Origin: Eledone cirrhosa
Lineage: Eukaryota
DNA: 64,000 bases
Assembly (NCBI GenBank): GCA_964016885.1
Contig: OZ024741.1
Coordinates: 38,130,001-38,194,000 of the forward strand
Reading direction: 5' to 3'
Of the stretch, positions 13,890 through 49,738 are shown one piece after another. The notes below the pieces were generated by a model, which saw nothing but the letters and a program-made list of their open reading frames with translations, had not been told where the DNA came from and did not search any database. Each line of letters opens with the position of its first letter. The stretch's first letter is position 1. The translations under genes and the position numbers were made by a program.

Positions 13890-14136
13890 TTATCATTATT
13901 ATTATTATTATTATTATTATTGAATGCCATGGTTGACGGAGGCTCGGCTCTGTAAGGTATAGTAATTTTTAACCGTTAAAACAATTGTAAATTGTTTAAA
14001 ACTTGAACCAAATTGTTGATAAAGACACCCTCCTCCCCGTGAGAGGGGTCTTTCTGTCCGTTATTTGGCCCTTCGGGGTTAAATAACCAGTTATTGGGGT
14101 TTTGTACCCAAAATTTCATTTTAAACAAAAAACAAC

Positions 14137-16207
14137 ATGGCTACGAAAAAGAAATTTCATACGTCACACCCACTCATTCCGTCTTCTTCTTCCTCAATCA
14201 TCACTACAGCAGAGAGAAGATTGTCTCTCTCCCTCCCTTCTCTTTCGCAAGTGACGAAAGAAAAGAAAAGTCTCGTGCAAAGCGTGCAAGGTTTCTCCAC
14301 GACGACGACGACAGCGACGAAACAGGTGTGCGGGAAATACGAAAACCCAGTTCATTCGTCTAACGTCAGGAATAATAGCAGTAGCAGCCGTAATAACAAC
14401 AGCAACAGTGACAATGAAAACAACAGTAGCAGCCGCAACAGCATCACCAGCAGCATAAACAACAACAGCATTAGCAGCAGCAACGCCAACAACAACCACA
14501 GCAACAGCGGCGGAGGCAGTAGTCGTAGTACCTGCAGCAACAACAAAAGTACCAGCAGCTCTGACGACAACAACAACAGCAGAGAAAAACCAATCTCATT
14601 TGCAGGTATTGCGAAAAACTTGGAAACAATCCTCATAACAAATGAGGAATTAGAGGAAGCGAAGAAGATGGTGACAAAGAACGGACACCGAGCAATCTGC
14701 AAGGCAGCGGAAAAATTTTTCGAAACCCAAGAGCACTGTACGGTCACGTACCGTACAGTAAGTACAAAATCCCGTAGGGTGGAAAGAGCCACAGAGGCCC
14801 AAATACAAAAAGCCTTGGGGTCTGTGTGGCAGCGGAAAACGCACATCACCCGAGGCAAAAAAATATGCCACCGTAGACGTACTTTTTGCCACACCCCAGG
14901 AGGCAAAGGCCCAATCAGTAGTGACCCTAAGGAGCGAGGAAATGGTGTTGGTGCCCTCCTACTGCGGGCAAAAAATTGTGAGGGTCAAACTGACCCACGT
15001 CCCCCCCGGAATGACCCCTTCTTGGCTGGCCGCGTCTGTCCTCGTCGGAATCGAGGACAAAACAACTGTACTGCAAGTACAGAAAAAAGTAAGAGAAGAT
15101 TGGGTCGGCTCCTCCATTGAGATGCTAATCCAAACCAACCAGGAGTGCATCGAAGCTATCCCGGATGTGATAGACTTCGATAACGGCACTCAACTGCCCA
15201 TAAGTGTTGAGGGCAAACGCCCGAAATGCTTTCGCTGTGGATCGAAGACTCACCTCAGGGCCTTCTGCAACGAGAAGACCCTGAGAAAGGAGAAAACCCC
15301 CCTCCTTCCGAATCCGGCTCCACGGCTACCAGCAACAGGACAAGCGCCAACCAGGAACGATAGGTCCGTGGCACCCATACCAACTCCACGGAAATCAAAA
15401 ACAGCAGCAGCAGTGGAAATATTAACAACAACAACAGCAATACCAAATGCAGCTGCAACAGAGACTCCAGTGCAAACATCACCAACAACAACAAGTGAAA
15501 GAGTGGAGCTGGTACCCCTCCCCGACCTTACAGAATCAGACATGGAGTGTGAGGTGGGAGAGGGATGGCAAAAGGTCGCAAGAAGGCACAAACGCAGAAG
15601 CAGCGCATCGTCGCCTTTGAAAAGGGAGGAAAGAAATGAGAAAAGGGTAAAGTCTACTGCAAAGAGACCCACAGCAGCAACACCACCAACACCATCACCA
15701 CCCACACCAGCACCACCATCACCACCGGCGACAACCCCACCGCCAACAACACCTTCAACACCACCACCACAAGCACCAACATCGCAAACACAACAACAAA
15801 ACACACACACCCAGCAACAACGACAAGAAAATAGCAGAACCACACCCCACCCCCAGAAAAACAAATGCACGGCAATAAATACACACAACAAGAAACTAAT
15901 GACTTACATAATTGAACACACAGACATTTCACAACAGGACTACATAATACCAGCACCAATCAAAACGCCAACTAACATAAGACTGCTAAAAATAGCACAG
16001 AAACAATACACAAACATTAAAACGAAATTCCCCAACGCAGTTGGTGATTTCAGGGACCTAGGAGGAACCATCAATCGAAGAGTATATTCAGACATTCTCT
16101 TAGAAGAGCCGACGACCAGCCGAAGGGACGATTCAACGGTCCCTTCACCAGACGATCAAGTGAAAAGGGATGTAAAAACCATCCCTCCTCTACCAAAAGT
16201 ACGGTAA
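14137..16207 (+). pseudogene. A1 ORF1 (gag-like, zinc knuckle), frameshifted
   Basis: ORFs 14137-15120 and 14921-16207; CFRCGSKTHLRAFC CCHC knuckle. Confidence 0.85.
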
Positions 16208-16242
16208 GTGGTCTTTCCCATCTTTTCCACTCTATTTTAAAC

Positions 16243-19200
16243 ATGACCTCACTCAGAATAGGCAGCATAAATGCGCGTGGCTTGGGGTCGTCATGGAAGC
16301 AGGGTCACCTGCTCAACGACCTCAGGTCACTAAACATAGATGTAGTGGCCATCAGCGAGACCAGAATCTCCGAAGCACGGGCCTTCGCACCGATCTTCGG
16401 CGGCTACGATGTGTACGCATCTCCCAGCCGTCCTGGATCGGGTGGAGGAGTTGCTGTGCTTTTTCGGAGAGGTTTGGATCTCGCCATACGGGCCATCTTC
16501 CTGGACCCAGAGGGTAAGCTGGTGGTGCTGGACGTGACCAGCGGAGACGGGCAAGCTTTCAGGCTAGTGGCCGTCTATGCCCCGACAGGAGCAGGGCGGC
16601 CTGATTTCTTCCGGCGTCTGGAGACCTTTCTTGGAACGTCCCGCTCTTTAGTGTTAGTGGGCGACTGGAACGGGATCTTAGATGCACGCTGGGACTGTGT
16701 GGGATTAGCGGATAGGGGTGGAGGGTGCAAGAGCCTCACCAACCTGCTCAGGCGTTTTGAACTGTCTGACAGGTACCGATTGGATTTCCCGAATGTGCCA
16801 ATGTGGACTTGGACAAACCGCATAGGGTCATCCAGATCATATCTAGATAGAGTATTTTGTAGGGAAATAGATAGGTCTAGCATAGGCTGTCCACAATTCA
16901 AGATAGTCAGCTACACGGACCACAAATTCGTGATCTGTGTGCTTGACTTAGATAGGCTTCATAGACGAGGACCCGGCTACTGGAAGCTAAACGCGTCCTT
17001 ACCAGCGCGCAAGGCCTACAGAGACCGGATTAGCGAACTAGTTAAGCGGGCGTTGACGGGGGCCATCGTCAACAACAAGTTGTGGTTTGCTCTGAAAAGA
17101 GCGATTAGAATAGAATCGATTAGATTTAGTAAGGCTTTAGCAATAGAGAAAAATAGAGCAGAGGGAGAACTAGTTAGAAAATTAGACGAGGCGCTTAGCA
17201 AAGGCATTGCGACCGACGTGCTTGCGGCGAAATTGGCCCTTGACCAATTCTTCAATGCAAAGCACGAAGGCTGCGTTGTCAGAGCAAGGGTGCGTGCTCT
17301 CAGACACGAGGGGACGAAAGCCGTTCAATGGGCCCGAGTGGCGGAGGCGCGTCGTGGCAACAAAGCCACGATCCGGTCTTTGGTGGACCACGACGGGCGC
17401 ATGCTACTCGATCCCGGGCAAATGTGTGAAGCTTTTCAGCGACACTTCGCTCAGCTGTTCGGGGGCAGCGGTGAGCCGGGTAGAGGGATGGACTTTAGTG
17501 TCTACCTCGACGGACTGCCGCGGCTCTCGGCCACTGAGGCGAAGTGTTGCGAAAAGCCGATAACAGCCGCTGAAGTAAGGGAGGCAATGACTGGCTGCAC
17601 AAGGGGTAAATCGCCTGGTTTGGATGGTCTGCCCTATGAACTTTACGTACAGATGCCAGACTTGTTCGGAGGCCTATTGGCGGACGTCTACTGCAACTGG
17701 CAACAGAACGGGAGAATTCCCAGTTCTGTGAGCCGAGGAGCGGTGGCACTGCTGAGAAAGGATCCGAACAAGGGGGATAACATAGAAAATTTCCGGCCCA
17801 TAACTCTGCTAAACACAGAGTTTAAGATTTTGGCCAAGGTGCTAGCAAAGAGGTTGGCGCTTGTCGTTGGTGGTCTGGTGGGAGAGGCGCAGACATGCGC
17901 AATTCCCGACAGATCCATCCACGACAACCTCCACCTCATGCGATACATCGTAGAGAGGGTAGCTAGGGAACCTGGCACGGGTGGGTCCTTGATCAATTTA
18001 GATCAGTCGAAAGCTTTCGATAGGGTCGACCATCGTTACCTAGCGGCAGTCCTGAGGGCGGCTGGCTTTGGGCCCGTCTTCAGAGGCTGGATCGCTGCCA
18101 TGCACAGCGACATCTGCTCTGTGGTGAGAGTGAACGGTCACCTGTCGGAACCGTTCAACATCATGCGCTCGGTCCGCCAAGGATGTCCCCTCTCGTCCCT
18201 CTTGTACGTATTGACTCTCGAGCCATTACTGCACAAACTGGAGACGTTGAGGGGGGTCCCGCGCGAACTAGGATGCGGAAGATCCGTATCAGCATATGCG
18301 GACGATGTCACCGTAGTGGTGTCGAACGCCAAACACATCGAGGCGATCGGCACTACACTAAGAGAATACGAAGCGGTGACAGGAGCAATGATCAACCAGG
18401 AAAAGTCAGTGGGCCTGCAGCTCGGCACCTGGAGAGGCAGGTCCATGCCGTCCAACAGCGTCGTCGGACGCTGGACGGACGGACCGGTTAAATTGCTAGG
18501 GGTCTGGTTCGGTCCGGACCTCCAGACGGACAAAAACTGGGACGAGGTGACGAGCAGGGTGGCTTCTCTCACCCAGAAATGGGCCGAGAGGAAGCTATCC
18601 CTGAAAGGTCGAGCGGAGGTGGCTAACGCGTACATCGCGTCCGTCATCTGCTACCGCCTGACCGTCGTACCTTGTCCTAAGCCTCGCCTGACTGTGCTGG
18701 AGCGTTTGCTCTTTCGCTTTTTGTGGAAGGGACGCGCTCCGATGGTCAGGCGGTCCATCTGTTGTCAACACCCGCTACGTGGAGGGCTGGGCATGCCGTG
18801 GCTGATGATGCGCAGGCACGCGCTCAGGCTACGACATCTCCACCTCTTCCTCGACGGTGATCAGGTGTAGTCGCCGTTTGCTAGACGCGTGTTTCCCCAG
18901 CTCGTTTCCTTGACGGAGCTGCAGTCCTGGGTCAAGCGAAGACCGAGAGGGAGCGCCTGGAGACTGGAATGTCTTCAGGCGCTCACAGCCCTCGACCAAT
19001 CGGGCAATGTGATCGGTGGAAACTCCACCTCGGCGTTCTATAGAGGATTAGTGGAGGGGAAGAGCGACGACGTACTTGGGAAAACTCTAGGCGTCGACGA
19101 AAATCAACTAGCCAATCTCTTCGGAAGAACTTTCGGGCCAGGGCCTATGGACAACTTCCAGAAATCTCTGGCCTGGCAGTGCTACCGAGGAGCCTTGCCA

Positions 19201-19662
19201 GTTCGGGATAAACTCTACAGGCATGGAGGTGCCGTCAGCCGGGCATGTCCGAGATGCGCGCAGGGCGACGAAACCGTCCTGCACGCACTCGTCCAGTGTC
19301 CGAAAATTGCTGACTTGTGGGTTTATGTCGAACACCTGCTGTCGCGTTTAGGACGGATCCGGCTATCATCTGAGTCCATCGTGAGGATTGCCCCGCCCTC
19401 CTCCTTTAGCCGGGAAGGGCAGGCAGTTTTTATCTGCCTGGTGGCCATGGCGAAAGAGATAGTATGGTGGACACGTTTGAAAGGGCTGAAGACGAGCACT
19501 TACCTCTTCGGTGATGCTCTGATTGACTTTTTCAAATTTCATTTGAAAAGGAAAATCAGAGTAGAGAGGGAAGTGCTCTCTTCCCAGCATTTTGTTGAAA
19601 GATGGGTGAGAGAAGCAAGAATGGCCCGAGTGAATGGGCCTACTCTGAGCATATATCTGTAA
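16243..19662 (+). pseudogene. A1 ORF2 (APE-RT-zinc finger), one premature stop
   Basis: ORFs 16243-18870 and 18889-19662. Confidence 0.88.
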
Positions 19663-19923
19663 ATTAAAGGTGGAAAACTGGGAGAGGGCACTTGCCTTGG
19701 TGGTCAGGGTCATTGTGGCTTTTTACTGGGCTTTCTCCACAAATGTCCCTCCGAAGTCTCCCCCCTATTGGGGAATTTTTCATTGTTATTTTCATTGTTA
19801 TTTTTGTTACATCCTCTGTTTTTTGTTTTTCTACACGCAGAAATGCCCATTTGTACTGTCCTGCATTGTCCTGCACTGTCCTTAATGTCTACTTTATGTA
19901 AACCCTTGTGGTTAATAAAGAAA

Positions 19924-19958
<35 letters not shown>

Positions 19959-20173
19959 GAATGCCATGGTTGACGGAGGCTCGGCTCTGTAAGGTATAGT
20001 AATTTTTAACCGTTAAAACAATTGTAAATTGTTTAAAACTTGAACCAAATTGTTGATAAAGACACCCTCCTCCTCGTGAGAGGGGTCTTTCTGTCCGTTA
20101 TTTGGCCCTTCGGGGTTAAATAACCAGTTATTGGGGTTTTGTACCCAAAATTTCATTTTAAACAAAAAACAAC

Positions 20174-22270
20174 ATGGCTACGAAAAAGAAATTTCATACG
20201 TCACTCCCACTCATTCCGTCTTCTTCTTCCTCAATCATAACTACAGCAGAGAGAAGATTGTCTCTCTCCCTCCCTTCTTTAAATGTGTCTCTCTCCCTCC
20301 CTTCTATTTCGCAAGTGACGAAAGAAAAGAAAAGTCTCGTGCAAAGCGTGCAAGGTTTCTCCACGACGACGACGACAGCGACGAAACAGGTGTGCGGGAA
20401 ATACGAAAACCCATTTCATTCGTCTGACGTCAGGAATAATAGCAGTAGCAGCCGTAATAACAACAGCAACAGTGACAATGAAAACAACAGTAGCAGCCGC
20501 AACAGCATCAACAGCAGCATAAACAACAACAGCATTAGCAGCAGCAACACCAACAACAACCACAGCAACAGCGGCGGAGGCAGTAGTCGTAGTACCTGCA
20601 GCAACAACAAAAGTACCAGCAGCTCTGACGACAACAACAACAGCAGAGAAAAACCAATCTCATTTGCAGGTATTGCGAAAAACTTGGAAACAATCCTCAT
20701 AACAAATGAGGAATTAGAGGAAGCGAAGAAGATGGTGACAAAGAACGGACACCGAGCAATCTGCAAGGCAGCGGAAAAATTTTTCGAAACCCAAGAGCAC
20801 TGTACGGTCACGTACCGTACAGTAAGTACAAAATCCCGTAGGGTGGAAAGAGCCACAGAGGCCCAAATACAAAAAGCCTTGGGGTCTGTGTGGCAGCGGA
20901 AAACGCACATCACCCGAGGCAAAAAATATGCCACCGTAGACGTACTTTTTGCCACACCCCAGGAGGCAAAGGCCCAATCAGTAGTGACCCTAAGGAGCGA
21001 GGAAATGGTGTTGGTGCCCTCCTACTGTGGGCAAAAAATTGTGAGGGTCAAACTGACCCACGTCCCCCCCGGAATGACCCCTTCTTGGCTGGCCGCGTCT
21101 GTCCTCGTCGGAATCGAGGACAAAACAACTGTACTGCAAGTACAGAAAAAAGTAAGAGAAGATTGGGTCGGCTCCTCCATTGAGATGCTAATCCAAACCA
21201 ACCAGGAGTGCATCGAAGCTATCCCGGATGTGATAGACTTCGATAACGGCACTCAACTGCCCATAAGTGTTGAGGGCAAACGCCCGAAATGCTTTCGCTG
21301 TGGATCGAAGACTCACCTCAGGGCCTTCTGCAACGAGAAGACCCTGAGAAAGGAGAAAACCCCCCTCCTTCCGAATCCGGCTCCACGGCTACCAGCAACA
21401 GGACAAGCGGCAACCAGGAACGATAGGCCCGTGGCACCCATACCCACTCCACGGAAATCAAAAACAGCAGCAGCAGTGGAAATACTAACAACAACAACAG
21501 CAATACCAAATGCAGCTGCAACAGAGACTCCAGTGCAAACATCACCAACAACAAGAAGTGAAAGAGTGTAGTTGGTACCCCTCCCCGACCTCACAGAATC
21601 AGACATGGAGTGTGAGGTGGGAGAGAGATGGCAAAAGGTCGTAAGAAGGCACAAACGCAGAAGCAGCGCATCGTCGCCTTTGAAAAGGGAGGAAAGAAAT
21701 GAGAAAAGGGTAAAGTCTACTGCAAAGAGACCCACAGCAGCAACAACACCAACACCATCACCACCCACACTAGCGCCACCATCACCACCGGCGACAACCC
21801 CACCGCCAACAACACCTTCAACACCACCACCACAAGCACCAACATCGCAAACACAACAACAAAACACACACACCCAGCAACAACGACAAGAAAATAGCAG
21901 AACCACACCCCACCCCCAGAAAAACAAATGCACGGCAATAAATACACACAACAAGAAACTAATGACTTACATAATTGAACACACAGACATTTCACAACAG
22001 GACTACATAATACCAGCACCAATCAAAACGCCAACTAACATAAGACTGCTAAAAATAGCACAGAAACAATACACAAATATTAAAACGAAATTCCCCAACG
22101 CAGTTGGTGATTTCAGGGACCTAGGAGGAACCATCAATCGAAGAGTATACTCAGCCATTCTCTTAGAAGAGCCGACGACCAGCCGAAGGGACGATTCAAC
22201 GGTCCCTTCACCAGACGATCAAGTGAAAAGGGATGTAAAAACCATCCCTCCTCTACCAAAAGTACGGTAA
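20174..22270 (+). pseudogene. A2 ORF1 with one in-frame stop
   Basis: ORFs 20174-21571 and 21572-22270 in the same frame. Confidence 0.85.
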
Positions 22271-22305
22271 GTGGTCTTTCCCATCTTTTCCACTCTATTT
22301 TAAAC

Positions 22306-25300
22306 ATGACCTCACTCAGAATAGGCAGCATAAATGCGCGTGGCTTGGGGTCGTCATGGAAGCAGGGTCACCTGCTCAACGACCTCAGGTCACTAAACAT
22401 TGATGTAGTGGCCATCAGCGAGACCAGAATCTCCGAAGCACGGGCCTTCGCACCGATCTTCGGCGGCTACGATGTGTACGCATCTCCCAGCCGTCCTGGA
22501 TCCGGTGGAGGAGTTGCTGTACTTTTTCGGAGAGGTTTGGATCTCGCCATACGGGCCATCTTCCTGGACCCAGAGGGTAAGCTGGTGGTGCTGGACGTGA
22601 CCAGCGGAGACGGGCAATCTTTCAGGCTAGTGGCCGTCTATGCCCCGACAGGAGCAGGGCGGCCTGATTTCTTCCGGCGTCTGGAGACCTTTCTTGGAAC
22701 GTCCCGCTCTTTAGTGTTAGTGGGCGACTGGAACGGGATCTTAGATGCACGCTGGGACTGTGTGGGATTAGCGGATAGGGGTGGAGGGTGCAAGAGCCTC
22801 ACCAACCTGCTCAGGCGTTTTGAACTGTCTGACAGGTACCGATTGGATTTCCCGAATGTGCCAATGTGGACTTGGACAAACCGCATAGGGTCATCCAGAT
22901 CATATCTAGATAGAGTATTTTGTAGGGAAATAGATAGGTCTAGCATAGGCTGTCCACAATTCAAGATAGTCAGCTACACGGACCACAAATTCGTGACCTG
23001 TGTGCTTGACTTAGATAGGCTTCATAGACGAGGACCCGGCTACTGGAAGCTAAACGCGTCCTTACCAGCGCGCAAGGCCTACAGAGACCGGATTAGCGAA
23101 CTAGTTAAGCGGGCGTTGACGGGGGCCATCGTCAACAACAAGTGGTGGTTTGCTCTGAAAAGAGCGATTAGAATAGAATCGATTAGGTTTAGTAAGGCTT
23201 TAGCAATAGAGAAAAATAGAGCAGAGGGAGAACTAGTTAGAAAATTAGACGAGGCGCTTAGCAAAGGCATTGCGACCGACGTGCTTGCGGCAAAATTGGC
23301 CCTTGACCAATTCTTCAATGCAAAGCACGAAGGCTGCGTTGTCAGAGCTAGGGTGCGTGCTCTCAGACACGAGGGGACGAAAGCCGTTCAATGGGCCCGA
23401 GTGGCGGAGGCGCGTCGTGGCAACAAAGCCACGATCCGGTCTTTGGTGGACCACGACGGGCGCATGCTAGTCGATCCCGGGCAAATGTGTGAAGCTTTTC
23501 AGCGACACTTCGCTCAGCTGTTCGGGGGCAGCGGGGGGCCGGGTAGAGGGATGGACTTTAGTGTCTACCTCGACGGGCTGCCGCGGCTCTCGGCCACTGA
23601 GGCGAGGTGTTGCGAAAAGCCGATAACAGCCGCTGAAGTACGGGAGGCAATGACTGGCTGCACAAGGGGTAAATCGCCTGGTTTGGATGGTCTGCCCTAT
23701 GAACTTTACGTACAGATGCCAGACTTGTTCGGAGGCCTCTTGGCGGACGTCTACTGCAACTGGCAACAGAACGGGAGAATTCCCAGTTCTGTGAGCCGAG
23801 GAGCGGTGGCACTGCTGAGAAAGGATCCGAACAAGGGGGATAACATAGACAATTTCCGGCCCATAACTCTGCTAAACACAGAGTTTAAGATTTTGGCCAA
23901 GGTGCTAGCAAAGAGGTTGGCGCTTGTCGTTGGTGGTCTGGTGGGAGAGGCGCAGACATGCGCCATTCCCGACAGATCCATCCACGACAACCTCCACCTC
24001 ATGCGATACATCGTAGAGAGGGTAGCTAGGGAACCTGGCACGGGTGGGTCCTTGATCAATTTAGATCAGTCGAAAGCTTTCGATAGGGTCGACCATCGTT
24101 ACCTAGCGGCAGTCCTGAGGGCGGCTGGCTTTGGGCCCGTCTTCAGAGGCTGGATCGCTGCCATGCACAGCGACATCTGCTCTGTGGTGAGAGTGAACGG
24201 TCACCTGTCGGAACCGTTCAACATCATGCGCTCGGTCCGCCAAGGATGTCCCCTCTCGTCCCTCTTGTACGTATTGACTCTCGAGCCATTACTGCACAAA
24301 CTGGAGACGTTGAGGGGAGTCCCGCGCGAACTAGGATGCGGAAGATCCGTGTCAGCATATGCGGACGATGTCACCGTAGTGGTGTCGAACGCCAAACACA
24401 TCGAGGCGATCGGCACTACACTAAGAGAATACGAAGCGGTGACAGGAGCAATGATCAACCAGGAAAAGTCAGTGGGCCTGCAGCTCGGCACCTGGAGAGG
24501 CAGGTCCATGCCGTCCAACAGCGTCGTCGGGCGCTGGACGGACGGACCGGTTAAATTGCTAGGGGTCTGGTTCGGTCCGGACCTCCAGACGGACAAAAAC
24601 TGGGACGAGGTGACGAGCAGGGTGGCTTCTCTCACCCAGAAATGGGCGGAGAGGAAGCTATCCCTGAAAGGTCGAGCGGAGGTGGCTAACGCGTACATCG
24701 CGTCTGTCATCTGCTACCGCCTAACCGTCGTACCTTGTCCTAAGCCTCGCCTGACTGCGCTGGAGCGTTTGCTCTTTCGCTTTTTGTGGAAGGGACGTGC
24801 TCCGATGGTCAGGCGGTCCATCTGTTGTCAACACCCGCTACGTGGAGGGCTGGGCATGCCGTGGCTGATGATGCGCAGGCACGCGCTCAGGCTACGACAT
24901 CTCCACCTCTTCCTCGACGGTGATCAGGTGTGGTCGCCGTTTGCTAGACGCGTTTTTCCCCAGCTCGTTTCCTTGACGGAGCTGCAGTCCTGGGTCAAGC
25001 GAAGACCGAGAGGGAGCGCCTGGAGACTGGAATGTCTTCAGGCGCTCACAGCCCTCGACCAATCGGGCAATGTGATCGGTGGAAACTCCACCTCGGCGTT
25101 CTATAGAGGATTAGTGGAGGGGAAGAGCGACGACGTACTTGGGGAAACTCTAGGCGTCGACGAAAATCAACTAGCCAATCTCTTCGGAAGAACTTTCGGG
25201 CCAGGGCCTATGGACAACTTCCAGAAATCTCTGGCCTGGCAGTGCTACCGAGGAGCCTTGCCAGTTCGGGATAAACTCTACAGGCATGGAGGTGCCGTCA

Positions 25301-28321: not shown

Positions 28322-28356
28322 GTGGTCTTTCCCATCTTTTCCACTCTATTTTAAAC

Positions 28357-32036: not shown

Positions 32037-32074
<38 letters not shown>

Positions 32075-37668: not shown

Positions 37669-37695
37669 ATTATTATTATTATTATTATTATTATT

Positions 37696-40600
37696 GAATG
37701 CCATGGTTGACGGAGGCTCGGCTCTGTAAGGTATAGTAATTTTTAACCGTTAAAACAATTGTAAATTGTTTAAAACTTGAACCAAATTGTTGATAAAGAC
37801 ACCCTCCTCCTCGTGAGAGGGGTCTTTCTGTCCGTTATTTGGCCCTTCGGGGTTAAATAACCAGTTATTGGGGTTTTGTACCCAATATTCATTTTAAACA
37901 AAAAACAACATGGCTACGAAAAAGAAATTTCACACGTCACTCCCACTCATTCCGTCTTCTTCTTCATCAATCATCACTACAGCAGAGAGAAGATTGTCTC
38001 TCTCCCTCCCTTCTTTAAATGTGTCTCTCTCCCTCCCTTCTCTTTCGCAAGTGACGAAAGAAAAGAAAAGTTTCGTGCAAAGCGTGCAAGGTTTCTCCAC
38101 GACGACAGCGACGAAACAGGTGTGCGGGAAATACGAAAACCCAGTTCATTCGTCTGACGTCAGGAATAATAGCAGTAGCAGCCGTAATAACAACAGCAAC
38201 AGTGACAATGAAAACAACAGTAGCAGCCGCAACAGCATCACCAGCAGCATAAACAACAACAGCATTAGCAGCAGCAACACCAACAACAACAACCACAGCA
38301 ACAGCGGCGGAGGCAGTAGTCGTAGTACCTGCAGCAACAACAAAAGTACCAGCAGCTCTGACGACAACAACAACAGCAGAGAAAAACCAATCTCATTTGC
38401 AGGTATTGCGAAAAACTTGGAAACAATCCTCATAACAAATGAGGAATTAGAGGAAGCGAAGAAGATGGTGACAAAGAACGGACACCGAGCAATCTGCAAG
38501 GCAGCGGAAAAATTTTTCGAAACCCAAGAGCACTGTACGGTCACGTACCGTACAGTAAGTACAAAATCCCGTAGGGTGGAAAGAGCCACAGAGGCCCAAA
38601 TACAAAAAGCCTTGGGGTCTGTGTGGCAGCGGAAAACGCACATCACCCGAGGCAAAAAATATGCCACCGTAGACGTACTTTTTGCCACACCCCAGGAGGC
38701 AAAGGCCCAATCAGTAGTGACCCTAAGGAGCGAGGAAATGGTGTTGGTGCCCTCCTACTGCGGGCAAAAAATTGTGAGGGTCAAACTGACCCACGTCCCC
38801 CCCCCGGAATGACCCCTTCTTGGCTGGCCGCGTCTGTCCTCGTCGGAATCGAGGAGAAAACAACTGTACTGCAAGTACAGAAAAAAGTAAGAGAAGATTG
38901 GGTCGGCTCCTCCATTGAGATGCTAATCCAAACCAACCAGGAGTGCATCGAAGCTATCCCGGATGTGATAGACTTCGATAACGGCACTCAACTGCCCATA
39001 AGTGTTGAGGGCAAACGCCCGAAATGCTTTCGCTGTGGATCGAAGACTCACCTCAGGGCCTTCTGCAACGAGAAGACCCTGAGAAAGGAGAAAACCCCCC
39101 TCCTTCCGAATCCGGCTCCACGGCTACCAGCAACAGGACAAGCGGCAACCAGGAACGATAGGCCCGTGGCACCCATACCCACTCCACGGAAATCAAAAAC
39201 AGCAGCAGCAGTGGAAATATTAACAACAACAACAGCAATACCAAATGCAGCTGCAACAGAGACTCCAGTGCAAACATCACCAACAACAACAAGTGAAAGA
39301 GTGGAGCTGGTACCCCTCCCCGACCTCACAGAATCAGACATGGAGTGTGAGGTGGGAGAGAGATGGCAAAAGGTCGTAAGAAGGCACAAACGCAGAAGCA
39401 GCGCATCGTCGCCTTTGAAAAGGGAGGAAAGAAATGAGAAAAGGGTAAAGTCTACTGCAAAGAGACCCACAGCAGCAACAACACCAACACCATCACCACC
39501 CACACTAGCACCACCATCACCACCGGCGACAACCCCACCGCCAACAACACCTTCAACACCACCACCACAAGCACCAACATCGCAAACACGACAACAAAAC
39601 ACACACACCCAGCAACAACGACAAGAAAATAGCAGAACCACACCCCCACCCCCAGAAAAACAAATGCACGGCAATAAATACACACAACAAGAAACTAATG
39701 ACTTACATAATTGAACACACAGACATTTCACAACAGGACTACATAATACCAGCACCAATCAAAACGCCAACTAACATAAGACTGCTAAAAATAGCACAGA
39801 AACAATACACAAATATTAAAACGAAATTCCCCAAAGCAGTTGGTGATTTCAGGGACCTAGGAGGAACCATCAATCGAAGAGTATACTCAGACATTCTCTT
39901 AGAAGAGCCGACGACCAGCCGAAGGGACGATTCAACGGTCCCTTCACCAGACGATCAAGTGAAAAGGGATGTAAAAACCATCCCTCCTCTACCAAAAGTA
40001 CGGTAAGTGGTCTTTCCCATCTTTTCCACTCTATTTTAAACATGACCTCACTCAGAATAGGCAGCATAAATGCGCGTGGCTTGGGGTCGTCATGGAAGCA
40101 GGGTCACCTGCTCAACGACCTCAGGTCACTAAACATAGATGTAGTGGCCATCAGCGAGACCAGAATCTCCGAAGCACGGGCCTTCGCACCGATCTTCGGC
40201 GGCTACGATGTGTACGCATCTCCCAGCCGTCCTGGATCGGGTGGAGGAGTTGCTGTGCTTTTTCGGAGAGGTTTGGATCTCGCCATACGGGCCATCTTCC
40301 TGGACCCAGAGGGTAAGCTGGTGGTACTGGACGTGACCAGCGGAGACGGGCAAGCTTTCAGGCTAGTGGCTGTCTATGCCCCGACAGGAGCAGGGCGGCC
40401 TGATTTCTTCCGGCGTCTGGAGACCTTTCTTGGAACGTCCCGCTCTTTAGTGTTAGTGGGCGACTGGAACGGGATCTTAGATGCACGCTGGGACTGTGTG
40501 GGATTAGCGGATAGGGGTGGAGGGTGCAAGAGCCTCACCAACCTGCTCAGGCGTTTTGAACTGTCTGACAGGTACCGATTGGATTTCCCGAATGTGCCAA

Positions 40601-43600
40601 TGTGGACTTGGACAAATCGCATAGGGTCATCCAGATCATATCTAGATAGAGTATTTTGTAGGGAAATAGATAGGTCTAGCATAGGCTGTCCACAATTCAA
40701 GATAGTCAGCTACACGGACCACAAATTCGTGATCTGTGTGCTTGACTTAGATAGGCTTCATAGACGAGGACCCGGCTACTGGAAGCTAAACGCGTCCTTA
40801 CCAGCGCGCAAGGCCTACAGAGACCGGATTAGCGAACTAGTTAAGCGGGCGTTGACGGGGGCCATCGTCAACAACAAGTGGTGGTTTGCTCTGAAAAGAG
40901 CGATTAGAATAGAATCGATTAGGTTTAGTAAGGCTTTAGCAATAGAGAAAAATAGAGCAGAGGGAGAACTAGTTAGAAAATTAGACGAGGCGCTTAGCAA
41001 AGGCATTGCGACCGACGTGCTTGCAGCGAAATTGGCCCTTGACCAATTCTTCAATGCAAAGCACGAAGGCTGCGTTGTCAGAGCAAGGGTGCGTGCTCTC
41101 AGACACGAGGGGACGAAAGCCGTTCAATGGGCCCGAGTGGCGGAGGCGCGTCGTGGCAACAAAGCCACGATCCGGTCTTTGGTGGACCACGACGGGCGCA
41201 TGCTACTCGATCCCGGGCAAATGTGTGAAGCTTTTCAGCGACACTTCGCTCAGCTGTTCGGGGGCAGCGGTGGGACGGGTAGAGGGATGGACTTTAGTGT
41301 CTACCTCGACGGACTGCCGCGGCTCTCGGCCACTGAGGCGAGGTGTTGCGAAAAGCCGATAACAGCCGCTGAAGTAAGGGAGGCAATGACTGGCTGCACA
41401 AGGGGTAAATCGCCTGGTTTGGATGGTCTGCCCTATGAACTTTACGTACAGATGCCAGACTTGTTCGGAGGCCTCTTGGCGGACGTCTACTGCAACTGGC
41501 AACAGAACGGGAGAATTCCCAGTTCTGTGAGCCGAGGAGCGGTGGCACTGCTGAGAAAGGATCCGAACAAGGGGGATAACATAGACAATTTCCGGCCCAT
41601 AACTCTGCTAAACACAGAGTTCAAGATTTTGGCCAAGGTGCTAGCAAAGAGGTTGGCGCTTGTCGTTGGTGGTCTGGTGGGAGAGGCGCAAACATGCGCC
41701 ATTCCCGACAGATCCATCCACGACAACCTCCACCTCATGCGATACATCATAGAGAGGGTAGCTAAGGAACCTGGCACGGGTGGGTCCTTGATCAATTTAG
41801 ATCAGTCGAAAGCTTTCGATAGGGTCGACCATCGTTACCTAGCGGCAGTCATGAGGGCGGCTGGCTTTGGGCCCGTCTTCAGAGGCTGGATCGCTGCCAT
41901 GCACAGCGACATCTGCTCTGTGGTGAGAGTGAACGGTCACCTGTCGGAACCGTTCAACATCATGCGCTCGGTCCGCCAAGGATGTCCCCTCTCGTCCCTC
42001 TTGTACGTATTGACTCTCGAGCCATTACTGCACAAACTGGAGACGTTGAGGGGAGTCCCGCGTGAACTAGGATGCGGAAGATCAGTGTCAGCATATGCGG
42101 ACGATGTCACCGTAGTGGTGTCGAGCGCCAAACACATCGAGGCGATCGGCACTACACGAAGCGGTGACAGGAGCAATGATCAACCAGGAAAAGTCAGTGG
42201 GCCTGCAGCTCGGCACCTGGAGAGGCAGGTCCATGCCGTCCAACAGCGTCGTCGGACGCTGGACGGACGGACCGGTTAAATTGCTAGGGGTCTGGTTCGG
42301 TCCGGACCTCCAGACGGACAAAAACTCGGACGAGGTGACGAGCAGTGTGGCTTCTCTCACCCAGAAATGGGCCGAGAGGAAGCTATCCCTGAAAGGTCGA
42401 GCGGAGGTGGCTAACGCGTACATCGCGTCCGTCATCTACTACCGCCTGACCGTCGTACCTTGTCCTAAGCCTCGCCTGACTGCGCTGGAGCGTTTGCTCT
42501 TTCGCTTTTTGTGGAAGGGACGCGCTCCGATGGTCAGGCGGTCCATCTGTTGTCAACACCCGCTACGTGGAGGGCTGGGCATGCCGTGGCTGATGATGCG
42601 CAGGCACGCGCTCAGGCTACGACATCTCCACCTCTTCCTCGACGGTGATCAGGTGTGGTCGCCGTTTGCTAGGCGCGTGTTTCCCCAGCTCGTTTCCTTG
42701 ACGGAGCTGCAGTCCTGGGTCAAGCGAAGACCGAGAGGGAGCGCCTGGAGACTGGAATGTCTTCAGGCGCTCACAGCCCTCGACCAATCGGGCAATGTGA
42801 TCGGTGGAAACTCCACCTCGGCGTTCTATAGAGGATTAGTGGAGGGGAAGAGCGACGACGTACTTGGGGAAACTCTAGGCGTCGACGAAAATCAACTAGC
42901 CAATCTCTTCGGAAGAACTTTCGGGCCAGGGCCTATGGACAACTTCCAGAAATCTCTGGCCTGGCAGTGCTACCGAGGAGCCTTGCCAGTTCGGGATAAA
43001 CTCTACAGGCATGGAGGTGCCGTCAGCCGGGTATGTCCGAGATGCGCACAGGGCGACGAAACCGTCCTGCACGCACTCGTCCAGTGTCCGAAAATTGCTG
43101 ACTTGTGGGTTTATGTCGAACACCTGCTGTCGCGTTTAGGACGGATCCGGCTATCATCTGAGTCCATCGTGAGGATTGCCCCGCCCTCCTCCTTTAGCCG
43201 GGAAGGGCAGGCAGTTTTTATCTGTCTGGTGGCCATGGCGAAAGAGATAGTATGGTGGACACGTTTGAAAGGGCTGAAGACGAGCACTTACCTCTCCGGT
43301 GATGCTCTGATTGACTTTTTCAAATTTTATTTGAAAAGGAAAATCAGAGTAGAGAGGGAAGTGCTCTCTTCCCAGCATTTTGTTGAAAGATGGGTGAGAG
43401 AAGCAAGAATGGCCCGAGTGAATGGGCCTACTCTGAGTATATATCTGTAAATTAAAGGTGGAAAACTGGGAGAGGGCACTTGCCTTGGAGGTCAGGGTCA
43501 CTGTGGCCTTTTACTGGGCTTTCTCCACAAATGTCCCTCCGAGAGTCTCCCCCCTATTGGGGAATTTTTCATTGTTATTTTTTTGTTACATCCTCTGTTT

Positions 43601-43702
43601 TTGTTTTTTACACGCAGAAATGCCCATTTGTACCGTCCTGTATTGTCCTGCACTGTCCTTAATGTCTACTTTATGTAAACCCTTGTGGTTAATAAAGAAA
43701 TC
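37696..43702 (+). mobile_element. Tx1 family A, copy A4 (frameshifted)
   Basis: ORF1 in 3 pieces (37910-40006); ORF2 40042-43450 broken by an 11-nt deletion at ~42157; followed by (ATT)6. Confidence 0.93.
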
Positions 43703-43720
43703 ATTATTATTATTATTATT

Positions 43721-46700
43721 GAATGCTATGGTTGACGGAGACTCGGTTCTGTAAGGTATTGTAAATTTTGACCGCTATAACAATTGTAAATTGTTTAAAA
43801 CTTTAACCAAATTGTAGACAAAAATACCCTCCTCCTCGCGAGAGGGGTCTTTCTGCCCGTTATTTGGCCCTTCGGGGTTAAATAACAGCTTATTGGGGTT
43901 TTGTGCCCAATATTTATTTTAAACAAAAAATAAAAAACATGGCTACGAAAAAGAATTTTCATAGGTCACTCCCACTCATTCCGTCTTCTTCTTCCTCAAT
44001 CGTCACTCCAGCAGAGAGAAGATTGTCTCTCTCCCTCCCTTCTCTAAATGTGTCTCTCTCTCCCCCCTTCTCTTTCGCAAGCGACGCCAGAAAAGAAAAA
44101 TCACGTGCAAAGCGTGCAAGATTTCTCCCCGACGACGACGACAACGACGAAAGATGTGTGCGGGAAATACGAAAACCCATTTCATTCGTCTGACGTCAGG
44201 AATAATAGCAGTAGCAGCCGTAATAACAGCAGCAGCAGCAACAGTGACAAGGAAAACAACAGTAGCAGCCGCAACAGCATCAGCAGCAGCATAAACAACA
44301 ACAGCATTAGCAGCAACAACAACAGCAGCAGCAGCAGCAACAACAACAACCACAGCAACAGCGGCGGCGGCAGTAGTCGTAGTACCTGCAGCAACAACGA
44401 AAGTAACAGCAGCTCTGACGACAACAACAACAACAACAGCAGCAAAGAAAAACCAATCTCATTTGCAGGTATCGCAAAGAACCTGGAAACCATCCTCATA
44501 ACAAATGAGAAATTAGAGGAAGCGAAGAAGATGGTGACAAAAACAGGACACCGAGCAATCTGCAAGGCCGCCGAAAAATTTTTCAAAACCCAACAGCACT
44601 GTATGGTCACGTACCGTACAGTAAGCACAAAATGCCGTAGGGTTGAAAGAGCCACAGAGGCTCAAATACAAAAAGCCTTAGGGTCTGTGTGGCAGCGGAA
44701 AACGCACATCACCCGAGGCAAGAAATATGCCACCGTAGACGTGCTTTTTGCCACACCCCCAGGAGGCAAAGGCTCAATCCCTAGTGACCCTAAGGAGCGA
44801 GGAAATGGTGTTGGTGCCCTCCTACTGCGGGCAAAAAATTGTGAGGGTCAAACTGACCCCCCCCCCCGGGATGGCCCCTTCTTGGCTGGCCGCGTCTGTC
44901 CTCGTCGGAATCGAGGACAAAACAACTGTACTGCAAGTACAGAAAAAAGTAAGAGAAGATTGGGTCGGCACCTCCATTGAGATGTTAATCCAAACCAACC
45001 AGGAGTGCATCGAAGCTATCCCGGATGTGATAGACTTCGATAACGGCACTCAACTGCCAATAAGGGTTGAGGGCAAACGCCCGAAATGCTTTCGCTGTGG
45101 ATCGAAGACTCACCTCAGGGCATTCTGCAACGAGAAGACCCTGAGAAAGGAGAAAACCCCCCTCCTTCCGAAACCGGCTCCACGGCTACCAGCAACAGGA
45201 CAAGCGGCAACCAGGAACGATAGGTCCGTGGCACCCATACCCAAGCCACGGAAATCAAAAACAGCAGCAGCAGTGGAAGTATTAACAACAACAACAGCAA
45301 TACCAAATGCAGCTGCAACAGAGACTCCAGTGCAAACATCACCAACAACAACAAGTGAAAGAGTGGAGCTGGTACCCCTCCCCGACCTCACAGAATCAGA
45401 CATGGAGTATGAGGTGGGAGAGGGATGGCAAAAGGTCGTAAGAAGACACAAACGCAGAAGCAGCGCATCGTCGCCTTCGAAAAGGGAGGAAAGAAATGAA
45501 AAGAAGGGTAAAGTCTACTGCTAAGAGACTCACAGCAGCAACACCACCAACACCATCACCACCGGCGACAACCCCACCGCCAACAACAACAACACCTTCA
45601 ACACCACAAGCACCAACATCGCAAACACAACAAAACACACACACCCAACAACAACGACAAGAAAATAGCAGAACAACACCCGACCCCCAGAAAAACAAAT
45701 TCACGGCAATAAATACACACAACAAGAAACTAATGACTTACATATATGAACACACAGACATTCCACAGCACGACTACATAATACCAGCAAAAATCAAAAC
45801 GCCAACTAACATAAGACTGCTAAAAATAGCACAGAAACAATACACAAACATTAAAACGAAATTCCCCAACGCAGTTGGTGATTTCAGAGACCTAGGAGGG
45901 ACTCTTAACCGGAGAGTATATTCGGACATACTCATAGAAGAGCCGACGACCAGCCGAAGGGACGATTCAACGGTCTCTTCACCAGACGATCAAGTGAAAA
46001 GGGATGGAAAAAAACCATCCTTCCTCTACGAAAAGTACGGTAAGTGGTCTTTCCCATTTTTTCCACTCTGTTTTAAACATGACCTCACTCAGAATAGGCA
46101 GCATAAATGCGCGTGGCTTTGGGTCGTCATGAAAGCAGGGTCACCTGCTCAACGACATCAGGTCACTAAACATAGATGTAGTGGCCATCAGCGAGACCAG
46201 AATCTCCGAAGCACGGGCCTTCGCACCGATATTCGGCGGCTACGATGTGTACGCATCTCCCAGCCGTCCTGGATCGGGGGAGGAGTTGCTGTGCTTTTTC
46301 GGAGAGGTTTGGATCTCGCCATACGGGCCATCTTCCTGGACCCAGAGGGTAAGTTGGTGGTTCTGGACGTGACCAGCGGAGACGGGCAAGCTTTCAGTCT
46401 AGTGGCCGTCTATGCCCCGACAGGAGCAGGGCGGCCTGATTTCTTCCGGCGTCTGGAGACCTTTCTTGGAACGTCCCACTCTTTCGTGTTAGTGGGCGAC
46501 TGGAACGGGATCTTAGATGGACGCTAGGACTGTGTGGGATTAGCAGATAGGGGTGGACGGTGCAAGAGCCTCACCAACCTGCTCAGGCGTTTTGAACTGT
46601 CTGACAGGTACCGATTGGATTTCCCGAATGTGCCAATGTGGACTTGGACAAATCGCATAGGGTCATCCAGATCATATCTAGATAGAGTATTTTGTAGGGA

Positions 46701-49694
46701 AATAGATAGGTCTAGCATAGGCTGTCCACAATTCAAGATAGTCAGCTACACGGACCACAAATTCGTGATCTGTGTGCTTGACTTAGATAGGCTTCATAGA
46801 CAAGGACCCGGCTACTGGAAGCTAAACGCGTCCTTACCAGCGCGCAAGGCCTACAGAGACCGGATTAGCGAACTAGTTAAGCGGGCGTTGACGGGGGCCA
46901 TCGTCAACAACAAGTGGTGGTTTGCTCTGAAAAGAGCGATTAGAATTCAATCCATTAGGTTTAGTAAGGCTTTAGCAATAGAGAAAAATAGAGCAGAGGA
47001 GAACTAGTTAGAAAATTAGACGAGGCGCTTAGCAAAGGCATCGCGACCGACGTGCTTGCGGCGAAATTGGCCCTTGACCAATTCTTCAATGCAAAGCACG
47101 AAGGCTGCGTTGTCAGAGCTAGGGTGCGTGCTCTCAGACACGAGGGGACGAAAGCCGTTCAATGGGCCCGAGTGGCGGAGGCGCGTCGTGGCAATAAATC
47201 CACGATCCGGTCTTTGGTGGACCACGACGGGTGCATGCTACTCGATCCCGGGCAAATGTGTGAAGCTTTTCAGTGACACTTTGTTCAACTGTTCGGGGGC
47301 AGTGGCGGGCCGGATCGAGGGATGGACTTTAGTGTCTACCTCGACGGACTGCCGCGGCTTTCGGCCACTGAGGCGGAGTGTTGCGAAAAGCCGATAACAA
47401 CCGCTGAAGTACGGGAGGCAATGACTGGCTGCACAAGGGGTAAATCGCCTGGTTTGGATGGTTATGCCCTATGAACCTTACGTACAAATGCCAGATTTGT
47501 TCGGAGGCCTCTTGGCGGACGTCTACTGCAACTGGCAACAGAACGGGAGAATTCCCAGCTCTGTGAGCCGAGGAGCGGTGTCGCTGCTGAGAAAGGATCC
47601 GAACAAGGGGGATAACATAGATAATTTTAGGCCCATAACTCTGCTAAACACAGAGTTCAAGATTTTGGCCAAGGTGCTAGCAAAGAGGTTGGCGCTTGTC
47701 GTTGGTGGGAGAGGCACAAACATGTGCCATTCCCGACAGATCCATCCACAACAACCTCCACCTTATGCGATACATCGCAGAGAGGCTAGCTAGGGAACCT
47801 GGCACGGGTGGGTCTTTGATCAATTTAGATCAGTCGAAAGCCTTCGATAGGGTCGACCATCGTTACCTAGCGGCAGTCCTGAAGGCGGTTGGCTTTGGGC
47901 CCGTCTTCAGAGGCTGGATCGCTGCCATGCACAGCGACATCTGCTCTGTAGTGAGAGTGAACGGTCACCTTTCGGAACCGTTCAACATCATGCGCTCGGT
48001 CCGCCAAGGATGTCCCCTCTCGTCACTATTGTACGTATTGACTCTCGAGCTATTACTACACAGACTGGAGACGTTGAGGGGGGTCCCGCGTGAACTAGGA
48101 TGCGGAAGATCCGTGTCAGCATATGCCGACGATGTCACCGTAGTGGTGTCGAACGCCAAACACATCGAGGCGATCGGCACTACACTAAGAGAATACGAAG
48201 CGGTGACAGGAGAAATGATCAACCAGGAAAAGTCAGTGGGCCTGCAGCTCGGCACCTGGAGAGGCAGGTCCATGCCGTCCAACAGCGTCGTCGGGCGCTG
48301 GACGGACGGACCAGTTAAATTGCTAGGGGTCTGGTTCGGTCCAGACCTCCAGACGGACAAAAACTGGGACGAGGTGACGAGCAGGGTGGCTTCTCTCACC
48401 CAGAAATAGGCCGAGAGGAAGCTATCCCTGAAAGGTCGAGCGGAGGTGGCTAACGCGTACATCGCGTCCGTCATCTACTACCGCCTAACCGTCGTACCTT
48501 GTCCTAAGCCCCGCCTGACTGCGCTGGAGCGTTTGCTCTTTCGCTTCTTGTGGAAGAGACGCGCTCCGTGGAGGGCTGGGCATGCCGTGGCTGATGATGC
48601 GCAGACACGCGCTCAGGCTACGACATCTCCACCTCTTCCTCGACGGTCATCAGGTGTGGTCGCCGTTTGCTAGATGCGTTTTTCCCCAGCTCGTCTCCTT
48701 GACGGAGCTGCAGTCCTGGGTCAAGCGAAGACCGAGAGGGAGCGCTTGGAGACTGAAATGTCTTCAGGCGCTCACAGCCCTCGACCAATCGGGCAATGTG
48801 ATCGGTGGAAACTCCACCTTGGCGTTCTATAGGGGATTAGTGGAGGGGAAGAGCGACGACGTACTTGGAGAAACTCTAGGCGTCGACGAAAATCAACTAG
48901 CCAATCTCTTCGGAAGGACTTTCGGGCCGGGGCCTATGGACAACTTCCAGAAATCCCTGGCCTGGCAGTGCTACCGGGGTGCTTTGCCAGTTCGGGATAA
49001 ACTTTACAGGCATGGAGGTGCCGTCAGCCGGGCATGTCCGAGATGCGCACAAGGCGACGAAACCGTCCTGCACGCACTCGTCCAGTGTCCGAGCATTGCT
49101 GACTTGTGGGTTTATGTCGAACACCTGCTGTCACGTGTAGGACGGATCCAGCTATCAGCTGAGTCCATCGTGAGGATTTCCCCGCCCTCTTCCTTTAGCC
49201 GGGAAGGGCAGGCTGTTTTTATCTGTCTGGTGGCCATGGCGAAAGAGATAGTATGGTGGACACGTTTGAAAGGGCTGAAGACGAGCACTTACCTCTTCGG
49301 TGATGCCCTGATTAACTTTTTCAAATTTCATCTGAAAAGGTAAATCAGGGTAGAGAGGGAAGTGCTCTCTTCCCAGCATTTTGTTGAAAGATGGGTGAGA
49401 GAAGCAAGTATGGCCCGAATGAATGGGCCTTCTCTGAGTATGTGTCTGTAAATTAAAGGTGGAAAACTGGGAGAGGGCACTTGCCCTGGTGGTCAGGGCC
49501 ACTGTGGTCTTTTAATGGGCTTTCTCCACAAATGTCCCTCGGAAGTCTCCCCCCTATTGGGGAATTTTTCTTTGTTATTTTATTTCATCCTCTGTTTTTT
49601 TTACACGCAGAAATGCCCATTTGTACCGTCCTGTATTGTCCTGTACTGTTCTTAATGTCTACTTCATGTAAACCCTTGTGGTTAATAAAGAAAA

Positions 49695-49695
<1 letters not shown>
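43721..49695 (+). mobile_element. Tx1 family A, copy A5 (most decayed)
   Basis: Many stops, frameshifts and deletions; ends AATAAAGAAAAC(ATT)14. Confidence 0.92.

Positions 49696-49737
<42 letters not shown>

Positions 49738-49738
<1 letters not shown>

What the first reader, a model, noticed from the sequence alone, without database searches (positions are those of the whole stretch)
13922..49737. Tx1-clade families apparently specific for (TTA)n
Seen: all seven Tx1 copies (three families, including the 5'-truncated C copy at 62037) have pure TTA repeats on both sides. Full-length copies start at a fixed phase (ATT|G). None is nested inside another element's body despite tens of kb of available sequence. 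Known: Tx1 microsatellite specialists include Kibi (TC)n and Koshi (TTC)n; I do not recall a TTA specialist. A3 has both ORFs intact and is a candidate site-specific integration tool.
Basis: partly seen in the sequence, partly recalled or inferred. Interest (0 to 1): 0.72.

Follow-up and report, generated by a model that had tools for sequence, protein, structure and literature searches.

The report
Tx1-like LINEs homing to TTA repeats
A young, abundant family of jumping genes, likely of the Tx1 group, has thousands of full-length copies in this animal genome that almost all begin directly after a TTA repeat, likely because its enzyme nicks DNA at ATTA and its RNA ends pair with the repeat; repeat-seeking is a known habit of such elements, and only this target looks undescribed for the group.

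Summary
Observation confirmed and extended genome-wide. Seven APE-RT LINE copies sit between pure (ATT)n tracts; the six full-length ones start ATT|G; copy A3 has both ORFs open. In G000, 2445 of 2536 family-A and 2167 of 2331 family-D 5' ends follow (ATT)3, against 51 of 399,640 background positions. Array neighbours are closer to dispersed copies than to each other, so these are likely separate insertions. Specificity is not absolute: 14 of 34 truncated copies abut a TTA tract, and a few sit at short ATTA sites with 7-17 bp duplications. A SINE with a similar 3' end uses isolated ATTA sites. The nuclease therefore likely reads a short motif, and RNA-DNA pairing likely adds the tract preference, which weakens the 'integration tool' idea. 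Tx1 membership fits the anatomy but could not be tested against named references. Dong-like elements use the same tracts on the other strand. Ten literature searches found no TTA-targeting Tx1; Repbase was not searchable. This scan has already reported the same system on other DNA of this genome. New variant of a known kind.

The parts
13895..13921 (+). (ATT)9 tract, 5' flank of the first copy; non-element DNA upstream
13922..19925 (+). U1/A1, full-length family A copy, both ORFs interrupted
19926..19958 (+). (ATT)11 tract
19959..25988 (+). U2/A2, full-length family A copy; ORF1 stops at 465 aa, ORF2 open (1139 aa)
25989..26009 (+). (ATT)7 tract
26010..32038 (+). U3/A3, full-length family A copy with both ORFs open
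26225..28321 (+). A3 ORF1, 698 aa; CX2CX4HX4C zinc knuckle, predicted RRM-type region before it; low-complexity flanks
   Evidence: no Pfam hit
28357..31776 (+). A3 ORF2, 1139 aa; APE endonuclease, reverse transcriptase (YADD), C-terminal CCHC
32039..32074 (+). (ATT)12 tract
32075..37668 (+). U4, full-length family B copy (about 80% to A over ORF2), frames broken
37669..37695 (+). (ATT)9 tract
37696..43702 (+). U5, full-length family A copy, both ORFs interrupted
43703..43720 (+). (ATT)6 tract
43721..49695 (+). U6, older full-length family A copy (93%), frames broken
49696..49737 (+). (ATT)14 tract, shared with the 3' end of a Dong-like element on the other strand
49738..61956 (-). Five R4/Dong-like elements or fragments (RT, CCHC, PD-(D/E)xK-type motif, no APE), each bounded by (TAA)n: 49738-50410, 50432-53547, 53631-57196, 57243-61378, 61475-61956
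61957..62036 (+). (ATT)26-AT tract, 5' flank of U7
62037..63055 (+). U7, 5'-truncated family C copy (about 75% to A)
63056..63112 (+). (ATT)19 tract, 3' flank of U7

Best explanation
These are full-length and truncated copies of a young, likely Tx1-clade LINE lineage whose full-length copies sit in (TTA)n tracts throughout the genome; its APE endonuclease likely nicks the AAT strand opposite ATTA to prime reverse transcription, and short ATT-repeat ends on the element's RNA likely pair with the target and fix the phase. Shown: the flanks, the 3' junction at ATT, duplications that start with ATT at off-tract sites, and an intact APE-RT-CCHC ORF2. Inferred: (1) first nick at the T-A step of 5'-AAT/AAT-3'; (2) second-strand cut up to about 7-21 bp away and not sequence-specific; (3) the almost invariant ATT|G 5' junction arises because full-length cDNA ends in a few AAT bases, copied from an ATT leader, that anneal to the cut target; (4) each insertion leaves tract on both sides, so later copies stack head to tail.
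For: 5' ends after (ATT)3: A 2445 of 2536; D 2167 of 2331; B 27 of the first 30 of 95, the other 3 with one interruption in the tract. Base before G is not T in 9 of 2536 A and 12 of 2331 D ends; 19 of these 21 are tracts with one changed base, 1 is a phase shift, 1 lacks a tract. 3' ends: 6870 of 9314 followed by NC(ATT)3; 97 of the first 100 on contig C1 continue with ATT, 83 of 100 with (ATT)3. No obligatory repeat tail: off-tract truncated copies show duplications starting at ATT that account for the whole 3' flank (L078 17 bp, L054 11 bp, L070/L071 7 bp). Separate insertions: the best match of U1, U2, U3, U5 and U6 is each a copy on another contig. More abundant AT and AC microsatellites (582 and 78 versus 11 ATT tracts in 200 kb) are rarely the flank. 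A SINE with a similar 3' end has 68 of 74 3' flanks starting ATTA and 20 non-repeat duplications of 10-21 bp, only 2 of which end at a T|A step. APE catalytic motifs are present and the model matches L1 ORF2p best (E 2e-54).
Against: No cleavage or priming was measured. Of 34 truncated A/D copies only 14 abut a TTA tract; 5 have an ATT-starting duplication, 2 abut (TTC)n, 4 abut a Dong-like end and 9 are unexplained (sorted by eye; two pairs look like duplicates of one event). No full-length copy among 15 with a marked 5' flank and a located 3' end showed the mark duplicated at the 3' side, so duplications are not shown for full-length copies except one odd 34-bp case (L056). L098 and L296 have (ATT)n 5' and ATT(CTT)n 3', which needs a blunt or very short duplication. 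That the SINE uses this same ORF2 is inferred only from 3'-end likeness. No raw RNA reads were available to test the leader.
Confidence: 0.6

Rival explanations
1. The endonuclease alone sets specificity: it needs several ATT units and cuts both strands at the T-A step, so the ATT|G phase needs no RNA leader; the SINE is moved by a different, looser relative.
For: Endonuclease specificity is given as the main determinant of target choice (PMC4494074 passage; PMC7265360 Discussion, for TRAS1/SART1). The hairpin-loop region is the same in the A, D and E copies examined. Truncated copies, which lack any leader, still mostly have a 3' tract (24 of 34), and 14 of 15 resolved tract junctions are compatible with ATT|.
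Against: LINE fragments occur at single ATTA sites with clean duplications whose far end is not a T|A step (L078, L054, L072). Most compatible junctions have 1-4 bp microhomology, so compatibility is weak evidence; U7 is out of phase.
Confidence: 0.3
2. No targeting: the element carries its own (ATT)n tail and the arrays grew by tandem duplication, which would place a tail in front of every copy.
For: In the window 5 of 6 full-length 5' tracts are a neighbour's 3' tract. One adjacent pair (L055/L056) are sisters at 99.63% and share an interrupted 34-bp tract.
Against: Many full-length copies have a 5' tract preceded by unique DNA, (TTC)n, a SINE or a Dong-like end. Mixed families alternate in one array, and nearest relatives lie elsewhere. 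Several copies have no repeat tail.
Confidence: 0.04
3. Insertion is loose (any ATTA) and selection or assembly bias leaves full-length copies only in TTA-rich stacks.
For: SINE and a few short LINE fragments do use isolated ATTA sites; an unselected SINE sample has (ATT)3 in only 2 of 15.
Against: Selection cannot set a base-exact ATT|G phase (21 exceptions in 4867 at the last base). Copies 99% or more identical to A3 are already in tracts. Short-read contigs of three DNA-type runs cover both element ends.
Confidence: 0.06

Closest known systems
Kibi (TC)n and Koshi (TTC)n of teleosts; crocodilian Tx1 families on (TTCC)n/(TTTC)n (PMC4494074, passages; PMC3812793, passages)
   Same: APE-type Tx1-clade LINEs that insert into a microsatellite; tandem insertions sandwiching target, and both duplications and truncations of the target, are described for Tx1-driven SINEU insertions in the same paper.
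   Different: Target is (TTA)n, not a C/T repeat; host is likely an octopod; copy number is very high (at least 4,900 full-length 5' ends). Kinship to Kibi/Koshi was not testable.
Dong, DongAg, DongBg (R4 clade), which target TAA microsatellites (PMC3812793 passage)
   Same: Same microsatellite; Dong-like elements share the tracts here.
   Different: Dong-type elements carry a restriction-like nuclease (recalled; the motif is seen in the window copies), not APE, and face the other way: 40 of 100 sampled copies are followed by a Dong-like 3' end on the opposite strand.
TRAS1 and SART1 of Bombyx (PMC7265360, Discussion read)
   Same: Two elements in one repeat in opposite directions; TRAS1 EN nicks a T-A step; RNA-target annealing helps priming in SART1.
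   Different: Both are telomere-specific elements of one APE lineage (R1 clade, recalled); here an APE and an RLE element share a dispersed microsatellite.
Human L1 ORF2p (PDB 9k6i, 8uw3, 1vyb)
   Same: Best solved-structure match over APE and RT; catalytic motifs conserved; hairpin loop of the same length.
   Different: About 18-22% identity; no Transposase_22 hit for ORF1; no poly(A) tail; 182 bits versus 311-785 bits for the best 150 library relatives.
L1-Tx1 and Dong-R4 families annotated in Octopus vulgaris (PMC13282606, parts 1-2 of 3 read; PMC8967140, passages)
   Same: Both groups are listed as recently active or expanded in octopods (13 L1-Tx1 families, 421 recent insertions in O. vulgaris).
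   Different: The parts read say nothing on target sites; their consensus libraries (Zenodo, Repbase, Dfam) were not seen and may hold this family.

Membership tests
Tx1 clade | Two ORFs; ORF2 with APE, RT and C-terminal CCHC (shared with the whole L1 group) | tested here: met
   Pfam Exo_endo_phos, RVT_1, zf-RVT; motifs; fold
Tx1 clade | Type I ORF1 (RRM plus CCHC knuckle), which PMC5203782 calls consistent with Tx1 in non-mammalian animals | tested here: met
   CX2CX4HX4C seen; feature search of aa 170-400 gives CCHC, RRM and ZCCHC3-type clusters at 0.89-0.93 (a lead); paper passage. Pfam itself gave no hit.
Tx1 clade | RT phylogeny groups with named Tx1 families | not testable with these tools
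   No Repbase/Dfam sequences held; none of the 30 relatives looked up carries a clade name. The tree has no named Tx1 reference; it only groups A3 with an Argonauta protein and unnamed 40-79% relatives (support 0.99).
Tx1 clade | Target-sequence preference (common in the clade; criterion of more than 20% of flanks in PMC4494074) | tested here: met
   93-96% of full-length 5' ends; criterion
Kibi/Koshi lineage | Insertion into (TC)n, (TTC)n or related C/T repeats | tested here: not met
   Target is (TTA)n; 2 of 34 truncated and 0 of 62 full-length sampled copies directly abut (TTC)n at the 5' side
Kibi/Koshi lineage | RT clusters with Kibi/Koshi | not testable with these tools
   No reference sequences available
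Vertebrate-type L1 | Transposase_22 ORF1 and poly(A) tail | tested here: not met
   No Pfam hit for ORF1; 97 of 100 3' ends continue with ATT, none with poly(A)
R4/Dong clade | Single ORF with C-terminal restriction-like nuclease, no APE | tested here: not met
   The + strand copies have APE and two ORFs. The - strand neighbours do show RT, CCHC and a PD-(D/E)xK-type motif without APE; their R4 label rests on recalled motifs and the TAA target.

The most novel reading that the evidence does not exclude
One ATTA-reading enzyme serves two targeting regimes: it drops a SINE at any ATTA, but its own LINE RNA carries ATT-repeat ends picked up from the donor site, which pair with the target at both junctions. 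Target choice would then be partly inherited through RNA and could be redirected by changing the RNA ends, and an APE and an RLE lineage would have converged on one microsatellite from opposite strands.
Probability: 0.25. Interest if true: 0.7.

Novelty: new variant of a known kind. Interest (0 to 1): 0.45.

Why it matters
It adds a new target, (TTA)n, to the microsatellite specialists of the likely Tx1 clade, in a lineage with thousands of young full-length copies and several copies with both ORFs open (A3 and 5 of 18 sampled A copies), so the target rule can be tested directly. It explains retrotransposon stacks in this genome and is relevant to repeat annotation and microsatellite markers in octopods. 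As an integration tool it is modest: the target is common, and the nuclease likely reads a short motif. The contrast between the LINE (tracts) and the SINE (any ATTA) is a natural experiment on nuclease versus RNA control of target choice.

Tried and rejected
DNA search of G000 with the 5' 191 bases returned nothing, as common words are skipped; exact patterns were used instead. Naming relatives to anchor the clade failed: only Octopus sinensis, Argonauta hians and Patella caerulea records had informative taxa, none a clade name. The metagenome scan gave only 22-34% relatives; 3 of 80 loci hold an ATT/AAT tract, not informative. No RNA holder listed; laying contigs showed both element ends in three DNA-type runs but skips the repeat, so it says nothing on transcript starts; those runs may include the window's own sample. 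Phase test on truncated junctions was inconclusive because of microhomology. Test for duplicated imperfections around full-length copies: 0 of 15 with a located 3' end, 5 more had no 3' end found. The atlas search of ORF2 gave only generic APE-RT clusters. Supplements of PMC4494074, whose Fig. 3 lists Tx1 targets, could not be read and the figure is not held; the original Dong paper was not held; one passage search of PMC10294476 failed on a too-short term and was not repeated. Search of earlier findings by sequence gave nothing. Rejected: own-tail plus tandem duplication; assembly artefact; Kibi/Koshi target; vertebrate-type L1.
Full report
Observation. The window holds six full-length LINE copies head to tail on the + strand from 13922 to 49695, separated and bounded by pure (ATT)n tracts of 18-42 bp, and a seventh, 5'-truncated copy at 62037-63055, also between tracts. 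U1, U2, U3 and U5 are 97.9-99.2% alike, U6 93%, U4 about 80% and U7 about 75%. All six full-length copies start ATT|G; all seven end with AATAAA, a few bases, C, then ATT. Between U6 and U7 lie five elements or fragments on the - strand with RT, a CCHC motif and a PD-(D/E)xK-type motif but no APE, each bounded by (TAA)n; I label them R4/Dong-like from recalled motifs and the known TAA target.

What it is. ORF2 matches Pfam APE, RT and zf-RVT, keeps the APE catalytic motifs, YADD and the C-terminal CCHC, and its model (mean pLDDT 71, pTM 0.57, weak in the last 250 residues) matches human L1 ORF2p best. ORF1 has a CX2CX4HX4C knuckle after a region resembling RRM/ZCCHC3-type clusters (a lead only). 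PMC5203782 (passages) ties this type I ORF1 in non-mammalian animals to Tx1. Named relatives are from Argonauta hians (58-60%), a short stretch in an Octopus sinensis record and Patella caerulea (30%), so the host is likely an octopod. No named Tx1 reference could be obtained, so clade membership is likely, not shown.

Genome-wide test. The window alone cannot exclude an element-borne tail plus tandem duplication, because most tracts are shared by neighbours. In G000 (3.0 Gb) the family-A 5' 20-mer occurs 2536 times, 2445 of them after (ATT)3. Only 9 have a base other than T before the G; 8 of these are tracts with a changed last base and 1 has no tract. Ten more with a change four bases up are 9 altered tracts and 1 inverted junction. 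Family B has 95 such ends; the first 30 all follow a TTA tract in the ATT|G phase, 27 with three perfect units. A further family D, absent from the window, shares ORF2 with A at 95% DNA but has a diverged 5' part (ORF1 core 52% identical); 2167 of its 2331 5' ends follow (ATT)3 and 12 lack T before G, 11 by a changed base and 1 by a phase shift. The A/D 3' 23-mer occurs 9314 times, 6870 followed by NC(ATT)3; family C has 1275 3' ends, 23 of the first 30 followed by (ATT)3. Background is 51 of 399,640 positions in 20 evenly spaced 10-kb stretches. These counts use exact words and so favour young copies.

Unselected sample. I fetched 7.1 kb at each of the first 100 3' ends on contig C1. 62 are 5'-complete; 59 have three or more perfect ATT units before the 5' end and the other three have interrupted tracts; 55 have three or more after the 3' end; 5' and 3' tract lengths do not correlate (rho -0.10). 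Four were set aside (one with a deletion just behind an intact 5' end, three of diverged subfamilies with unresolved 5' ends). Of the 34 truncated copies, sorted by eye abut a TTA tract, 5 show a duplication starting with ATT (7, 7, 11, 17 bp and one reaching 8-10 bp into the next element), 2 abut (TTC)n, 4 abut a Dong-like end and 9 are unexplained; two pairs look like duplicates of one event. So specificity is very strong for full-length copies and strong but incomplete for truncated ones, where later deletions and nested insertions may account for part. For family C, 10 of 13 truncation points within 1.5 kb abut a TTA-type tract (by eye).

Independent insertions. Among 23 full-length A copies, the closest match of each of U1, U2, U3, U5 and U6 lies on another contig, though margins are small (for U2, 99.27 versus 99.24%), and family B sits in the middle of the array. 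One adjacent pair elsewhere (L055/L056) are sisters and share an interrupted 34-bp tract, which may be a local duplication.

Mechanism. 97 of 100 3' junctions continue with ATT and 95 with ATTA. In off-tract copies the duplication begins at that ATT and explains the whole 3' flank, so there is no obligatory repeat tail and the target supplied the ATT. This places the primer end at AAT-3' on the opposite strand, a T-A step as reported for TRAS1 EN (PMC7265360 Discussion). A SINE of about 190 bp with a tRNA-like head (recalled pattern) and a 3' end resembling the LINE's shows the same start: 68 of 74 3' flanks begin ATTA, with 20 non-repeat duplications of 10-21 bp (mode 16; a few lengthened by chance matches), only 2 ending at a T|A step. 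In unselected DNA only 2 of 15 SINE copies are followed by (ATT)3, and SINEs sit inside LINE bodies. If this ORF2 moves the SINE, which is inferred, the nuclease needs only ATTA and the second cut is loose. A loose second cut should give three phases in a pure tract, yet full-length LINEs show one. The simplest reading is a short ATT leader on the RNA that anneals at the 5' junction, with similar pairing at the 3' end, as proposed for SART1 priming. The rival is a nuclease that needs several units and cuts both strands in phase, with the SINE served by a looser relative. I put these at 0.6 and 0.3; neither was tested directly.

Comparison with what is known. Tx1 microsatellite specialists in the papers read are Kibi (TC)n, Koshi (TTC)n and crocodilian families on (TTCC)n/(TTTC)n (PMC4494074 passages); TAA repeats are listed for Dong only (PMC3812793 passage). 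PMC4640811 (passages) places most target-specific LINEs in early-branched, Tx1 and R1 groups. Octopus repeat papers list L1-Tx1 and Dong-R4 without target data in what I saw (PMC13282606 parts 1-2 of 3; PMC8967140 passages; PMC9115989 passages, no Tx1 mention). PMC5753468 and PMC4758252 (passages) added nothing on this target. Ten full-text searches showed no TTA-targeting Tx1. Repbase Reports, Kojima and Fujiwara 2004, most subscription papers and the figure and supplements of PMC4494074 were not seen, and any of them may already list this target.

Earlier notes of this scan. Eight listed findings on other DNA of this genome describe the same system. I had reached the reading before opening them; they are not independent support. 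They gave the lead to PMC7265360 and prompted the closer look at the short partner element, which I then tested.

Verdict. A real, genome-wide target preference of a likely Tx1-clade LINE lineage for (TTA)n; a new variant of a known kind, already seen repeatedly in this scan. Interest 0.45.

Noticed in passing
window 49738-61956 (- strand): Two families of R4/Dong-like elements share the same tracts in the opposite orientation; 57243-61378 has one open 1141-aa frame. In the 100-locus sample 40 copies are followed by a Dong-like 3' end on the other strand and 24 by another Tx1-like 5' end.
   Followed up: partly
window 61379-61474 and 61957-62047: The truncated Dong-like fragment at 61475-61956 is flanked by a duplication made of TTA tract plus the first 11 bases of U7, so it inserted after U7, was likely primed outside the repeat and brought its own (TAA)n tail.
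   Followed up: partly
L088, L129, L126 versus window 26010-32038: Families A, D and E share ORF2 and 3' UTR at 92-95% but differ in 5' UTR and ORF1 (A versus D ORF1 core 52% identical), which suggests exchange of 5' modules; all start with G after ATT.
   Followed up: partly
L058:722-902; also window and L150-L169: Abundant SINE whose last 25 bases resemble the LINE's 3' end; inserts at ATTA with 10-21 bp duplications, also inside LINE bodies.
   Followed up: yes
L055 and L056 (G000:C1, about 22.04-22.05 Mb): Adjacent sister copies (99.63%), both with both ORFs open, with the same interrupted 34-bp tract on both sides of L056; local duplication, long target duplication or copied leader not told apart.
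   Followed up: partly
P0150 cluster (Patella caerulea records SNE40_003393-003415): A 30%-identical relative has 11 members with close-set locus tags on one 79.7-Mb record, likely another tandem array of a target-specific LINE.
   Followed up: no
window 4517-5095: AT-only 15-bp minisatellite, 39 copies.
   Followed up: no
window 9219-10149: Long (AGT)n and (TGG)n arrays of 131 and 111 units with strong G skew.
   Followed up: no
L145 (G000:C4, about 16.75 Mb): Two family-A 5' ends head to head around a tract that is half AAT and half ATT, likely an inversion.
   Followed up: no
L057, L059: Truncated copies directly behind a Dong-like 3' end on the same strand, with (AAT)n on the left and (ATT)n on the right; possible inversions.
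   Followed up: no
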